This document shows, in pieces, positions 14,594-18,440 of a stretch of 64,000 nucleotides of DNA. How positions within the stretch are numbered: the stretch's first letter is position 1; each line of letters begins with the position of its first letter. Both the position numbers and the translations under genes were made by a program. Under the pieces are notes generated by a model. That model searched no databases and was not told the DNA's origin. It worked only from the letters and a program-made list of their open reading frames with translations. The DNA comes from an uncultured Phycisphaerales bacterium (GTDB lineage: Bacteria; Planctomycetota; Phycisphaerae; SM23-33; FEN-1343): NCBI GenBank assembly GCA_963785635.1, contig CAWAWB010000021.1, positions 41,002 through 105,001 on the forward strand. Reading direction: 5' to 3'.

Positions 14594-14836
14594 CTATTTG
14601 CTGCCTGTGTTCCTAGAGGTCTTTATGTCTAAGTTACGCGCATTTGTTATATGGACATTGGAAGGGGCCTCGGGTGCCAAACCGTGACTCAAGGTCAAGG
14701 CTTTGTTCTGTGGAACCGGTGGAGGAGATGTTTGCATACTCAGGGGTGGAGGTGATGCAGGGGCCTTAACGGTAGTCTCCACTTTAGCCTGATTCGGCTG
14801 AGCTATTCTATTGTTGGATTGATTCTGGTTTGTCAT
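14594..14836 (-). CDS. Small Pro-rich peptide C (80 aa, MTNQNQS...TSPPPVPQN...APEAPSN...GSK)
   Basis: AGGAG RBS 7 nt upstream of the ATG; shares motif with neighbouring peptides. Confidence 0.65.
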   Translation of the reverse strand: MTNQNQSNNRIAQPNQAKVETTVKAPASPPPLSMQTSPPPVPQNKALTLSHGLAPEAPSNVHITNARNLDIKTSRNTGSK

Positions 14837-14849
14837 GTGTTTTCTCCTA

Positions 14850-14975
14850 TCACTTCTTGACGGTTCCTCCTCCGCCACCCCTGGTAGTCGTAGTATTTGG
14901 CGGTGCTGGCGGCGGGGCCGTCGGTTGTCCACTTGATGTGCCTCTTCCGGTTTGGTTGTTTGTTGAGCTAGCCAT
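14850..14975 (-). CDS. Small Pro-rich peptide B (41 aa, MASSTNNQTG...TAPPPAPPN...KK)
   Basis: ATG overlaps the 3' end of peptide A (ATGGCTAG); shared motif. Confidence 0.6.
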   Translation of the reverse strand: MASSTNNQTGRGTSSGQPTAPPPAPPNTTTTRGGGGGTVKK

Positions 14976-15111
14976 TCTTTTTTGCCTTCTTTGAGTCGTC
15001 CGCGCTGAAGGTTTTTGATGTATTCTTTGGAGCTGGCGGAGGCGCGGTCGTCTTGCCACCCGACTCTTTATTGCCGCCTTGTTGAGAAGATCCTGTCTGA
15101 TTTGTAGACAT
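14968..15111 (-). CDS. Small Pro-rich peptide A (47 aa, MSTNQTG...TAPPPAPKN...KKAKKNG), below the ORF-track cutoff
   Basis: Translated by hand; with IS630 removed its ATG lies 2 nt after the upstream gene's stop; shared motif. Confidence 0.6.
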   Translation of the reverse strand: MSTNQTGSSQQGGNKESGGKTTAPPPAPKNTSKTFSADDSKKAKKNG

Positions 15112-15116
15112 TCCTA

Positions 15117-16336
15117 GTACTCTGTAACAGCTAAATCACCGGGTATAGTTTCTTCAGTTTGATCCGGGCGTCGGCGGTGGTGAATCGCCAGTCGATGCCC
15201 TTCTTCTTTTCATTTCGTGAACGTTCCCACGGCGCGATGCTCGCCGCCAGTTGTTCGCGGCTTTCAAAGTAGTCATCCATGCACTGGCGGCTCAACACGC
15301 TCAACTCGATCTCGGCCATATTCAGCCAACTGCCATGCTTGGGCGTGTGGTGAATCTCCAGCTTCTCCGCCAAACGCCGAGCCTCAGCCGGTTCAAATGC
15401 CTCGTACAGGCTGGCGATGTTGTGCGTGTTGAGTTGGTCCATCACCAGCACGATCTTCTCGGCCTGGGCGTACAGCACATCGCACAGTTCCCGTATCACG
15501 TGGGCGAAGTCGATTCGCGTTCGCTGCTGACGCACACGCACGTGCCGCTTGCCCTTCAGCGGTTCGGACACCAGGAACACGCTGGCCGTGCCGCAACGGC
15601 GGTATTCCGGATCAACCCGCTTGATTCGGCCGGATCGACCGGGAATCGAGGGGCGCGTCTGGGCCACCAACTGCTTGCTGGCTTCATCCAAGCATACCAG
15701 GGGTCGCAACGAGTCGAACGGCCGGTGGTATACCTCCAGCACGTCTTCCATCGCCGCGACAAATTCGCCGTTTTGCTTGGGCGGAATACACCAGTACTTG
15801 CTCAGGTGAGGCTTAAGCTCATTTTTTTAAGCGTCCGCTGCACCGCCATGTGACTGCAAGACTCGACGTATCCTTGCGCCACCATCTGGTCAGCCAGCAG
15901 ACGCACGCCCCAGCGGCTGCGCCCCTCCGGCGGCTCCATGCGAGTCAGGGCAATCAAGTGCGCTTCGGCCTTGCCGTCGAGCTTGCGTACCCGATAGCTG
16001 CCACGGTTGCCGTGCTCCAAGGCCGCCTCCAGCCCTTGCTCCACCAGACGACGACGCAAGTTCTCAACCGTCGTGGGATGACAGTCAAAAGCCTCGGCAA
16101 TGTGAGCGTCTTTCCACCCCGGACCTTCGGGGCCTTGGTCAGCCTTGAGCAACATCTGAGCATGCCTGCGTTGATGCGGCTTGCCTTTATCCAGCAGTGT
16201 CTGGAGTTGGGAACGCTCTTCGGTTGTCAATTCGACGATGTACTTTTTCATGACGGCCTCCTTGCCGATCAAAAGGGTTCTATCAACCCATCGGCAAAAA
16301 GAACCGCTACCCAGAAGTCTCTCCGTTACGGAGTAC
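15117..16336 (-). mobile_element. IS630-family insertion sequence
   Basis: Ends (ta)gtactctgtaac / gttacggagtac(ta), 1 mismatch; TA duplication (15115-15116, 16337-16338) within a CTAG site. Confidence 0.92.
15131..16251 (-). CDS. IS630 transposase as orfA (HTH) + orfB (DDE), joined by a probable programmed frameshift at an A7 run (15822-15828)
   Basis: MKKYIVELT...PPEGRSRW; CLDEASKQL, MDQLNTH, TPKHGSWLNMAEIE. Confidence 0.9.
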
Positions 16337-16886
16337 TAGATTCCTTGCAACCTCAAGATAAGGTAAAACAATGCTTGCGAGGCGACAGCCAAAAGCGCAA
16401 CTGCAGCAGATTTTACAGACATCGAAAAATGTTGCCTTCGGGCCTCATTAATTCCCGCATTATTTTCTTGAGCTTCTGCTAGTAGAGGACAAATCTTTTC
16501 AATCATTCCATCATCGATGGTCTTTTCTGCTTCATGCGGCGGCATGCCGGCATTCAAACTAAGGCGCTGCTTGTACTCGTTTCTCCACTCGTGCCAGGTT
16601 TTCATGCCAGCGATCGTCGAATATTTTCGGCAAAAAATGCAAAGGATCAATCGATAGGCGCTCAGCGCAAAAAAGCAAATGTCGCGCCTGCTGCAATGTA
16701 GTAAATAAACAAGTCGACCCGCGTGAACAGCCTTGGGAGCAAATCTATTCTGGAAACGCTTATGGCAGCGCCGCAAAGAACCGGAAGGACAATCAATAAC
16801 ACCCCGGCCCGCTGGTAAATCTGGTCTGCGTGGTCAATTTCCAGTTTGTATTGGTCATAGCATAGATCGTAGAAATCCCGACTCAT
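16336..16886 (-). CDS. Hypothetical ~183-aa, ~3-TM membrane protein (single frameshift at the homopolymer near 16670)
   Basis: ORFs 16662..16886 and 16336..16776 join into N-helix, 2 TM, soluble loop with NNAGINEARR, then final TM; AT-richer than the flanks. Confidence 0.65.
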
Positions 16887-17341
16887 GCCATCCTCTTAGC
16901 TATTCTTTTACCCCAAGTCAATGCCTACGAATGAATTCTGCTACTATTTTTTTGGCTACTTCCCGACCTACCAAACTGAGGGTTGGCATCTTCAATATCT
17001 CTCGGCTCAACCTGGCAAACTTGGTAATTGGGCAATCTGGATAAGATAGCCACTGTTCGAAAAATCGCCAATCAGCAACGTTGGCGGTCTTTGGGCTGAT
17101 TTTTCTCTAAGTCCTTTATTTTCAAGGACTCCTTCAAAGGCCGCCGACATCGCCCCATTGGCGGCCTTTGTGACAGCCGTCTGGAAACATGGGCAAGATG
17201 GGTAATCTAGGTAAGATGCCATGCGGGTGCGGTCACATGTTGGCAATCTGGGCATTCTTGAGGAGCGGCGATAAAAAAAGCACGGGCCAGCGGCCCGTGC
17301 TTGGAATCGCAAATCGCAAATCAAAAAAATCGCAAATCCGG

Positions 17342-18271: not shown

Positions 18272-18319
18272 CTATTCGGTCTCCTGTTCTGTTTATGAAG
18301 CGTCTTTCAGCTTTAAAAC

Positions 18320-18440
18320 CCTAAATCCTAAGCACGAAATCCTAAACAAATCCAAAATCCGAAGCACGAAACGAAGATCTACGTGTTTTTTGTTCCCATT
18401 CGAATTTCTGTCTGATTGTTTAGGATTTCGGATTTAGTGC
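18320..18440. repeat. Inverted AAATCC(T/G)AAGCACG-type array
   Basis: aaatcctaagcacgaaatcctaaacaaatcc ... gtttaggatttcggatttagtgcttagg. Confidence 0.7.

What the first reader, a model, noticed from the sequence alone, without database searches (positions are those of the whole stretch)
14594..15111. Three coupled short peptides sharing a T-[AS]-P-P-P-[AV]-P-x-N motif: candidate undescribed peptide system
Minus-strand ORFs: A (47 aa) MSTNQTG...KTTAPPPAPKNTSKT...KKAKKNG; B (41 aa) MASSTNNQTG...PTAPPPAPPNTTTT...VKK; C (80 aa) MTNQNQS...QTSPPPVPQNKALT...LAPEAPSNVHIT...GSK. All have a T-N-(N)-Q polar start, a polyproline-x-Asn core (twice in C, the second degenerate) and a basic end. A overlaps B, C has an AGGAG RBS, and A/B are in different frames, so the motif is conserved at protein level while the DNA has diverged. 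They follow a small membrane protein in one lower-GC operon. Inference: diversified ligands, substrates or inhibitors of that membrane protein, for example an antitoxin-like or sensing module in defence, or RiPP-like precursors. No modifying enzyme is adjacent.
Basis: partly seen in the sequence, partly recalled or inferred. Interest (0 to 1): 0.85.

Follow-up and report, generated by a model that had tools for sequence, protein, structure and literature searches.

The report
Membrane protein with proline-motif micropeptide partners
The three tiny proline-rich genes are real: they are the standard partners of an unnamed family of small membrane proteins that often sits inside restriction-modification (phage-defence) operons, although the copy in this genome looks broken.

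Summary
Their motif occurs 3 times in the whole 4.2-Mb genome, and all 3 are here.

A 1,227-bp IS630-family element (15113-16339, 25 near-identical copies in the genome) separates the peptides from the membrane gene. That gene (16886-16336) is also split by a frameshift at a T6 run.

The membrane protein belongs to an unnamed family of about 184 aa: 125 clusters at 50% identity, and a confident three-long-helix model with no solved look-alike. It is weakly related to PycTM, the membrane effector of Pycsar phage defence.

In 12 of 12 other loci with a strong family match, from Planctomycetota, Nitrospinota and one metagenome contig, 1-2 hydrophilic micro-ORFs follow the gene. The membrane proteins are only 21-68% identical. 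The window's P-x-x-P-x-N-x-x-x-T motif is in 10 of the 12 loci, against 2 of 5,089 long ORFs as background. Six of the 12 loci adjoin restriction-modification genes.

Best reading: a mobile defence- or addiction-type cassette whose micropeptides regulate a membrane effector. The function is inferred, not shown. The literature searches found no description of it.

The parts
16662..16886 (-). 5' part of the membrane-protein gene (74 codons, N-terminal helix, TM1, start of TM2), ending at a TGA created by the frameshift
   Evidence: tblastn with intact homologues P0001-P0003 aligns their residues ~4-92 to this frame (49-51% identity)
16669..16674 (-). T6 homopolymer run where the reading frame of the membrane gene changes (mutation or assembly error)
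   Evidence: 11 full-length homologues compared from other loci are single open frames. Reads could not test it
16336..16668 (-). 3' part of the membrane-protein gene (110 codons: rest of TM2, cytoplasmic helices, TM3, C-terminal LQGI)
   Evidence: 40% identity to the G015 homologue over 110 aa, E 4.7e-24; matches profile positions 71-184 of family alignment A1, E 8.3e-32
15113..16339 (-). IS630-family insertion sequence (orfA about 15802-16272, orfB 15131-15751) inserted at a TA between the stop of the membrane gene and the ATG of peptide A
   Evidence: HTH_32 E 1.6e-13; DDE_3 E 8.2e-25; 41-nt inverted ends 15114-15154 / 16299-16339; a contig of a public run covers exactly 15113-16339 and then diverges; 25 copies of at least 99.3% identity in the assembly
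14968..15111 (-). micropeptide A, 47 aa, one P-x-x-P-x-N-x-x-x-T motif
14850..14975 (-). micropeptide B, 41 aa, one motif; its start overlaps the end of A by 8 nt
14594..14836 (-). micropeptide C, 80 aa, two motifs (the second has Pro-Glu-Ala-Pro); AGGAG 8 nt before its ATG
16887..17277 (-). low-GC non-coding leader of the cassette (promoter not identified)
   Evidence: GC 0.44-0.52; no sigma-70-like site found; the terminator of the upstream gene lies at 17278-17302

Best explanation
**What it is.** The locus is a degraded copy of a conserved, horizontally mobile cassette with two kinds of part.
- Part 1 is a membrane protein of about 184 aa. It has an N-terminal cytoplasmic helix running into TM1, then TM2, a Lys/Arg-rich helical cytoplasmic region, and TM3. 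It is distantly related to PycTM, the pore-forming effector of Pycsar.
- Part 2 is one to three hydrophilic micropeptides of 34-90 aa. In 9 of 12 other loci the first one starts within 7 nt of the membrane gene's stop codon. They carry 1-3 copies of the linear motif P-x-x-P-x-N-x-x-x-T.

**Shown here.**
- The family exists.
- The pairing with peptides is constant.
- The motif is conserved while the rest of each peptide diverges.
- The cassette is frequently lodged in restriction-modification operons.
- This copy carries an IS630 insertion and a frameshift.

**Inferred.**
- The membrane protein is a membrane-damaging effector of an abortive-infection or addiction module.
- The disordered peptides dock through the proline/Asn/Thr motif on its cytoplasmic helical part and control it. 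Most likely they hold it inactive until infection or stress stops their supply. Many of them also have polyproline runs that make their synthesis depend on EF-P (recalled general knowledge).
- In this genome the cassette is probably dead.
For: **Pairing with peptides.**
- Proline-motif micro-ORFs follow the gene in 12 of 12 other loci with a strong family match.
- The membrane proteins of the 11 compared are only 21-68% identical to one another.

**Motif.**
- 18 of 19 partner ORFs, counting the window's three, hold P..P.N.
- 24 of 27 listed motif instances (my count) have Thr at N+4.
- None of the 19 has a hydrophobic stretch: the highest 19-residue hydropathy is 0.83.
- P..P.N...T, defined from the window alone, is present in 10 of 12 other loci. 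The background is 2 of 5,089 long ORFs of this genome. It is in 0 of 6 true PycTM loci of the same class.

**Translational coupling.**
- The first peptide starts within 7 nt of the membrane gene's stop codon in 9 of 12 loci; the others start 15, 39 and 82 nt after it.
- Once the IS is discounted, peptide A starts 2 nt after the stop.
- An AAGGA lies inside the conserved C-terminal Gln-Gly-Ile codons.

**Fused forms.** Natural proteins exist with the motif-bearing tail on the membrane protein, for example P0074 with two motif copies.

**The family.**
- 125 clusters at E <= 1e-3.
- AlphaFold model with pLDDT 95.9.
- 12 of 51 members give sub-threshold PycTM hits, best E 5.7e-4.
- hhalign against 6 true PycTM proteins gives probability 72.5%, E 3.3e-5 over 129 columns.

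**Context.**
- The cassette lies between hsdM and hsdS in 4 loci, alongside RhuM, TIR or Abi_2 genes in 3 of them.
- It lies next to other methylases in 2 loci.
- It lies next to an integrase and an IS3-type transposase in 1 locus.

**Distribution.** It is patchy: 2 of 41, 3 of 99, 9 of 401 and 7 of 401 genomes.
Against: - No experiment, transcript or peptide evidence exists for any member.
- Six of 12 loci have no defence gene among the neighbours scanned. One sits beside infB and the window's copy sits between mntP-like and nagB-like genes (named from their translations, not tested).
- PADLOC, NCBIfam and PHROGs give no usable match.
- The PycTM link is below Pfam's cut-off and only 72% by hhalign.
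- By the positive-inside rule (my reading of the sequences), TM3 should carry the C-terminus out of the cytoplasm. Fused tails would then lie on the opposite side from free cytoplasmic peptides. This fits an export or cargo role better than cytoplasmic inhibition, unless the fusions are stop-loss accidents.
- The conserved aromatic residues (Y14, Y90, W99, W102) could simply be helix packing.
- The direction of control (inhibitor or activator) is a guess.
Confidence: 0.5

Rival explanations
1. **Export or cargo model.** The membrane protein is a small holin-like exporter or anchor. The proline-motif peptides are its cargo, acting outside the cytoplasm as a surface or periplasmic ligand, a signal, or a decoy for phage.
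For: - In fused forms the motif-bearing tail follows TM3. By the positive-inside rule that end points out of the cytoplasm (sequences, model).
- The number of motifs per locus varies from 1 to 4, as for repeated ligands.
Against: - None of the 19 peptides has a signal peptide or hydrophobic segment.
- In the divergent fused proteins of G601 and G573 the stretch after TM3 is rich in Lys/Arg, which argues for a cytoplasmic tail.
- Only 1 of 51 members gives even a weak holin hit (Phage_holin_9, E 0.032).
Confidence: 0.15
2. **Translation-sensor model.** The polyproline runs matter as ribosome-stalling, EF-P-dependent sequences. The micro-ORFs would report translation capacity and so set expression or activity of the cassette, rather than acting as binding ligands.
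For: - 15 of 19 peptides contain PPP or longer runs, up to 16 prolines in the metagenome locus.
- Several have Pro-Pro-Asn, which I recall as a strong stalling context (recalled, not tested).
Against: - 4 of 19 peptides (both from G246, one from G679, and none of G659's first two motifs) have the motif without consecutive prolines: P-V-A-P-E-N, P-V-V-P-V-N.
- The invariant features are the spaced P..P, the Asn and the Thr, which a stalling signal would not need.
- The micro-ORFs lie downstream of the membrane gene, not upstream of it.
Confidence: 0.1
3. **RiPP model.** The peptides are precursors of RiPP-like natural products (one of the first reader's options).
For: - Several small diversified ORFs lie in tandem.
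- The cores are rich in Thr, Ser and Asn.
Against: - No modifying enzyme, protease or ABC exporter was seen among the neighbours scanned in the window or the 12 other loci.
- The only constant neighbour is the 184-aa helical membrane protein.
- There is no leader/core division. The conserved part is the motif itself.
Confidence: 0.03
4. **Broken-protein model.** A, B and C are pieces of one low-complexity protein broken by frameshifts in a decaying or mis-assembled locus.
For: - The neighbouring membrane gene does carry a frameshift.
- In G659 three motifs lie in a single 90-aa ORF.
Against: - Each of A, B and C has its own ATG and the N-terminus Met-(Ala/Ser/Thr)-polar seen in partner peptides of other loci. 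Their lengths (41-80 aa) fall in the range seen elsewhere (34-90 aa).
- Two separate micro-ORFs also occur in G442, G246, G548 and one Nitrospinota locus.
Confidence: 0.05

Closest known systems
PycTM, the transmembrane effector of Pycsar anti-phage systems (Pfam PF18967)
   Same: - Small all-helical membrane protein with the same order of parts: TM1, TM2, a Pro-Arg right after TM2, a helical cytoplasmic stretch, a basic patch, then TM3.
- hhalign probability 72.5% over 129 columns.
- 12 of 51 members give weak PF18967 hits.
- Found in defence neighbourhoods.
- Passages of PMC11224242 describe PycTM as disrupting membrane integrity after activation.
   Different: - No member scanned reaches Pfam's cut-off of 27.2 bits.
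- The N-terminal segment is different: F-x3-C-Y-x-Q-Y here, against Q-x-S-x2-A-D-x-K-A in the PycTM proteins aligned.
- No cyclase was seen among the neighbours scanned.
- The constant partner is a proline-motif micropeptide, which 0 of 6 true PycTM loci have.
Membrane-protein plus polyproline micro-ORF cassettes noted earlier in this scan (e1-482933, e1-1922483, e1-279303 in P2-type prophages; e1-2122007)
   Same: - Three-helix membrane protein followed by coupled proline-rich micro-ORFs in a defence hotspot.
- The nearest known family named there is also PycTM/SLATT.
- These are unchecked AI notes, used as leads only.
   Different: - Those notes give a PxxPxxPxxR motif and enterobacterial prophage hosts.
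- Here the motif is PxxPxNxxxT, and the hosts are Planctomycetota and Nitrospinota with restriction-modification operons.
- Look-ups by sequence found no shared stretch, so homology between the two sets was not shown.
Type II toxin-antitoxin and abortive-infection modules carried inside type I restriction-modification operons
   Same: - Small, coupled, mobile gene set with patchy distribution.
- It lies between hsdM and hsdS beside Abi_2, TIR and RhuM genes.
- This copy is disrupted, which would fit a costly gene, though this is inference.
   Different: - Neither toxicity nor neutralisation has been shown.
- The presumed regulator lies downstream, is a disordered peptide built from repeats of a linear motif, and comes in 1-3 genes.
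Eukaryotic proline-rich-motif recognition (SH3, WW, EVH1 and GYF domains binding PxxP-type peptides)
   Same: - The peptide side looks like a short linear proline motif in a disordered chain.
- The most conserved residues of the membrane protein include Tyr and Trp.
- This is a resemblance recalled from general knowledge, not a test.
   Different: - There is no sequence or fold relation.
- The receptor here would be a helical membrane protein.
- The Asn and Thr are part of the motif.

Membership tests
PycTM / Pycsar | Match to Pfam PF18967 above the gathering score (27.2 bits) | tested here: not met
   - The window pieces give no Pfam hit.
- The G015 homologue scores 11.9 bits, E 0.31.
- 12 of 51 family members hit at E <= 1, best 5.7e-4.
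- A search with PF18967 found no match in the window's genome.
PycTM / Pycsar | Adjacent pyrimidine cyclase (PycC) | tested here: not met
   - No cyclase domain was found among the neighbours scanned with Pfam in the window and in the scanned stretches L002, L012, L023-L025, L032-L037, L039, L041 and L042.
- Not every small ORF was scanned.
PycTM / Pycsar | Shared fold or architecture with PycTM | tested here: inconclusive
   - hhalign of A1 against 6 true PycTM proteins: probability 72.5%, E 3.3e-5, 129 columns.
- No solved structure was available to compare with.
SLATT-type 2TM effectors | Match to a Pfam SLATT model | tested here: not met
   No SLATT family is among the 25 families listed for the 51 members at E <= 1 (57 families matched in all, 32 not shown).
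RiPP biosynthetic cluster | Precursor peptide next to a modifying enzyme, protease or transporter | tested here: not met
   None was found among the scanned neighbours of the window or the 12 other loci.
Toxin-antitoxin module | Toxic product neutralised by the adjacent gene product | not testable with these tools
   Only gene order, coupling and context are available. This needs expression tests.
Phage holin | Match to a holin family and position in a lysis cassette | tested here: not met
   - 1 of 51 members hits Phage_holin_9, at E 0.032.
- PHROGs gave no usable match.
- No match in 50,697 phage records by tblastn.
- No endolysin was seen nearby.
IS630 family (the inserted element) | DDE_3 transposase with N-terminal HTH, terminal inverted repeats, TA target site | tested here: met
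   - HTH_32 E 1.6e-13 and DDE_3 E 8.2e-25.
- 41-nt inverted ends.
- TA at both junctions.
- 25 copies in the assembly.

The most novel reading that the evidence does not exclude
This would be a new class of signal-free immune or addiction module. A PycTM-like pore former would be gated not by a nucleotide messenger but by genetically encoded disordered micropeptides carrying repeats of a PxxPxNxxxT linear motif. The peptides could serve as the sensing element. For example, they could be titrated, cleaved or modified on the conserved Thr or Asn by a phage factor, or depleted when translation of polyproline fails, which would release the effector.
Probability: 0.25. Interest if true: 0.85.

Novelty: new variant of a known kind. 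Interest (0 to 1): 0.62.

Why it matters
**If the inference holds.** It adds a peptide-controlled branch to the membrane effectors of bacterial immunity. It also gives a rare bacterial example of regulation through a short linear proline motif.

**What can be done with it.**
- The motif is sharply defined and easy to mutate.
- The cassette is about 0.8 kb, with intact copies that can be cloned from several phyla.
- It shows that micro-ORFs of 34-90 codons, which standard annotation skips, can be the constant partner that defines a system.

**For this genome.** This is a decayed copy, hit by an IS630 element that has expanded to 25 copies.

Tried and rejected
**Complex prediction.** The G015 membrane protein was folded with its 58-aa peptide, each with its alignment. 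Score 0.18 against a mark of 0.32: no verdict, so not used either way.

**Public reads**.
- No RNA holder was listed.
- The four runs laid cover only the IS630 element (15113-16339) and a little beyond 17200.
- So neither the frameshift, the insertion polymorphism nor expression could be checked.

**Structure searches.**
- PDB Foldseek: best E 0.29, BAR-like helical bundles.
- BFVD viral models: best E 0.17.
- Nothing usable in either.

**Model of the natural fusion P0074**. The tail has pLDDT 50-77. No coordinates could be read, so no docking site was obtained.

**Family libraries.**
- PADLOC: only PycTM at E 0.77, plus one REase_II hit at E 0.0011 on the 74-aa fragment.
- NCBIfam and PHROGs: nothing usable.

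**Sequence searches with little or no yield.**
- tblastn against 50,697 phage records: no match.
- IMG/VR scans with A3 and P0007: none.
- Word-indexed protein search with the window's C-terminal piece: nothing.
- The same search with profile A1: only 5 proteins.
- Metagenome scan: 1 locus.

**Synteny with the same-genus and same-family genomes**. The DNA is only about 66% alike, so presence or absence of the islet could not be read.

**Literature.**
- 'PycTM' + 'proline-rich': 0 papers.
- 'SLATT' + 'micropeptide': 11 papers matched; the 10 listed were unrelated.
- 'proline-rich' + 'small protein' + 'anti-phage' + 'transmembrane': 0 papers.
- 'polyproline', 'defense system', 'phage', 'membrane effector' (at least 3 of the 4): 53 papers matched; none of the 12 listed was relevant by title or abstract.
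- 'PxxPxN': 1 unrelated paper.
- Of PMC13069673 and PMC11224242 only the passages containing 'PycTM' were read.
- Supplementary files were not opened. A candidate list in a supplement could name this family.

**Ideas dropped.**
- N-glycosylation sequon: Asn-x-Ser/Thr is present in only some motifs.
- A proline-rich antimicrobial peptide: the peptides are not Arg-rich.

Full report
**1. The observation**

On the minus strand, ORF A (15111-14968, 47 aa), B (14975-14850, 41 aa) and C (14836-14594, 80 aa) are exactly as described.
- A and B overlap by 8 nt in different frames.
- C has AGGAG 8 nt before its ATG.
All three are these ORFs. The looser PPP.P.N occurs 28 times.
- The region has GC 0.44-0.53, against about 0.60-0.65 around it.

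**2.

*An insertion sequence.* Between the membrane gene and peptide A lies a complete IS630-family element (15113-16339).
- It has HTH_32 (E 1.6e-13), DDE_3 (E 8.2e-25), 41-nt inverted ends and TA at both junctions.
- A contig from a public run covers exactly 15113-16339 and then diverges.
- The assembly holds 25 copies at 99.3% identity or more.
- With the element discounted, the stop codon of the membrane gene is 2 nt from the ATG of A. An AAGGA inside the last codons (Gln-Gly-Ile) sits 8 nt before that ATG.

*A frameshift.* The membrane gene itself is not one frame.
- Intact homologues align to one frame up to about residue 92 and to another frame from there on.
- The switch is at the T6 run 16669-16674.
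- All 11 full-length homologues compared from other loci are single open frames.
- Whether the shift is a mutation or a homopolymer error could not be tested, because no run covers that place.

**3. The membrane protein family**

*Size and fold.*
- A search of 1.84 billion cluster representatives with the intact G015 homologue found 125 clusters at E <= 1e-3, 75 at <= 1e-10 and 7 at <= 1e-30. Most are 175-200 aa.
- An alignment of 51 members (A1) gives an AlphaFold model of pLDDT 95.9 with long helices at 3-45, 58-85, 96-111 and 118-181.
- My reading of the model is: N-terminal cytoplasmic helix running into TM1, then TM2, a Lys/Arg-rich helical cytoplasmic region, then TM3.
- The most conserved positions are F6, C10, Y11, Y14, Y25, P87, R88, Y90, W99, W102, N148 and R151.

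*Nothing named or solved matches.*
- PDB: best E 0.29.
- BFVD: best E 0.17.
- NCBIfam, PHROGs and PADLOC: nothing usable.

*The one recurring weak signal is PycTM (PF18967).*
- 12 of 51 members hit it, best E 5.7e-4, all under the 27.2-bit cut-off.
- The precomputed tables list it for 2 of 5 proteins.
- It appears on 12% of members of the nearest Atlas cluster.
- A profile-profile comparison with six true PycTM proteins of the same class gives probability 72.5%, E 3.3e-5 over 129 columns from TM1 to TM3.
- I read this as a distinct sister family of PycTM, not a member.

**4. The pairing with peptides**

*How often.* I examined every other locus with a strong family match (E 1.1e-16 or better against A1 in my scripts).
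- There are nine genomes of Planctomycetota, two of Nitrospinota and one metagenome contig.
- All 12 have one or two hydrophilic micro-ORFs after the membrane gene. In 9 of the 12 the first one starts within 7 nt of the membrane gene's stop; the others start 15, 39 and 82 nt after it.
- The 11 membrane proteins compared are only 21-68% identical, so these are not copies of one recent element.

*The peptides.*
- Counting the window there are 19 micro-ORFs of 34-90 aa, and 18 contain P..P.N.
- Of the 27 motif instances listed, I count 24 with Thr four residues after the Asn.
- None has a hydrophobic segment.
- Outside the motif the peptides diverge freely, apart from a Met-(Ala/Ser/Thr)-polar start.
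- Loci carry 1-4 motif copies, spread over 1-3 ORFs. G659 has three in one 90-aa ORF, and the window has four in three ORFs.

*Against background.*
- The pattern P..P.N...T can be read from the window alone. It is present in 10 of the 12 other loci.
- A small ORF with that pattern lies within 450 nt downstream of 2 of 5,089 long ORFs of this genome.
- It lies downstream of 0 of 6 true PycTM genes.
- A looser core pattern, P[PVTK][AVGPQ]P.N, is in 15 of 18,975 small ATG-ORFs genome-wide. That looser pattern was shaped on the same peptides, so it is circular to that extent.

*Fused and divergent forms.*
- Natural proteins with a motif-bearing tail fused after TM3 exist: P0074 with two copies, P0118, P0048, and the more distant G601 and G573 proteins.
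- Weaker family hits differ. Two are followed by an FHA-domain protein, and two by a polar micro-ORF without the motif.

**5. Context and distribution**

*Neighbours.*
- Four loci have the cassette between hsdM and hsdS of type I restriction-modification operons: G778 (with RhuM), G659 (with a TIR protein), G548, and one Nitrospinota MAG (with Abi_2 and DUF1016_N).
- Two others follow an N6_N4 methylase or an Eco57I-type enzyme.
- One lies by a phage-type integrase and an IS3-type transposase.
- The remaining loci, and the window, have housekeeping or unannotated neighbours.

*How common.*
- The family was found in 2 of 41 relatives, 3 of 99 genomes of the order, 9 of 401 of the class and 7 of 401 of the phylum. 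These counts include the window's genome.
- This patchiness, the low GC and the nearby IS elements indicate horizontal mobility.

These handles are 'same class' as the window, so the window's genome is a member of Phycisphaerae (Planctomycetota).

**6. How it most likely works**

*Shown:* a conserved, mobile cassette of a PycTM-related membrane protein plus coupled micropeptides with a defined linear motif, often lodged among defence genes.

*Inferred:*
- The membrane protein is a membrane-damaging effector. This rests on analogy with PycTM, which passages of PMC11224242 describe as disrupting membrane integrity.
- The peptides control it through the motif, most simply as labile inhibitors whose loss frees the effector.
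- Polyproline runs in 15 of 19 peptides would make their supply sensitive to translation stress. However, four peptides keep the motif without consecutive prolines, so stalling cannot be the core function.

*Main difficulty:* topology. By the positive-inside rule the C-terminus should leave the cytoplasm, which would put fused tails on the other side from free peptides. So an export or cargo role stays open at about 0.15.

*Rejected or unlikely:*
- RiPP precursors are unlikely, because no enzyme partner appears in any locus.
- Chance ORFs are excluded by the synteny.
- 'One broken protein' is unlikely, because A, B and C each have the family-typical start and size.

**7. This copy**

The frameshift in the membrane gene and the IS630 element both point to an inactivated cassette. 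The element has removed the coupling and the ribosome-binding site of peptide A. Loss of a costly membrane effector would be an ordinary fate, but this is inference.

**8. Novelty**

- The literature searches found no description of a PycTM-like protein paired with proline-motif micropeptides. Supplements could not be read.
- Earlier notes of this same scan describe similar cassettes in P2-type prophages, and a 'cyclase-less PycTM-like protein with micropeptide'.
- Those are unchecked AI notes. Look-ups by sequence found no overlap with this family.
- I rate it a new variant of a known kind, namely membrane effectors of defence or addiction modules. The peptide partner is the new element.

Noticed in passing
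window 15113-16339 and 24 other places in the assembly: An IS630-family element is present in 25 copies of at least 99.3% identity in a 4.2-Mb, 26-contig assembly. This points to a recent burst of transposition. Public metagenome runs hold the element in other contexts.
   Followed up: partly
window 17278-17338: The strong terminator hairpin of the upstream nagB-like gene (17278-17302, 11 pairs) lies next to a roughly 34-nt sequence (17305-17338). That sequence recurs at 88-94% identity at 10 other places in this genome and at about nine places in the same-genus genome G001. It looks like a REP-like intergenic repeat.
   Followed up: no
window 18315-18357: A second short intergenic repeat of about 42 nt matches many places in the same-family genome G005 at 76-93% identity.
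   Followed up: no
L006 (G180) and L007 (G113): Two weak relatives of the membrane family (E about 1e-11 against A1) are followed not by micropeptides but by a protein with an FHA-like N-terminus and a long acidic low-complexity tail. The FHA call is by eye from the translation and was not tested. Given the conserved Thr in the peptide motif, a phospho-threonine link might be worth a look.
   Followed up: no
L008 (G433) and L009 (G275): Very weak family hits (E about 1e-8 to 1e-9 against A1) are followed by overlapping polar micro-ORFs that share a Glu-Lys-Pro-Ser-Gly-Glu-Asn stretch. This may be a further branch of the same theme.
   Followed up: no
L033 9898-10998 (G659); L032 7595-8752 (G778); L042 3885-4796: The type I restriction-modification operons that host the cassette also carry other passenger genes: a TIR_2-domain protein, a RhuM-family protein and an Abi_2 protein.
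   Followed up: partly
L012 2300-2506: The metagenome homologue's peptide has a run of 16 consecutive prolines, and the number of prolines in the motif differs widely between loci. Slippage in the CCN repeats may vary the run length.
   Followed up: no
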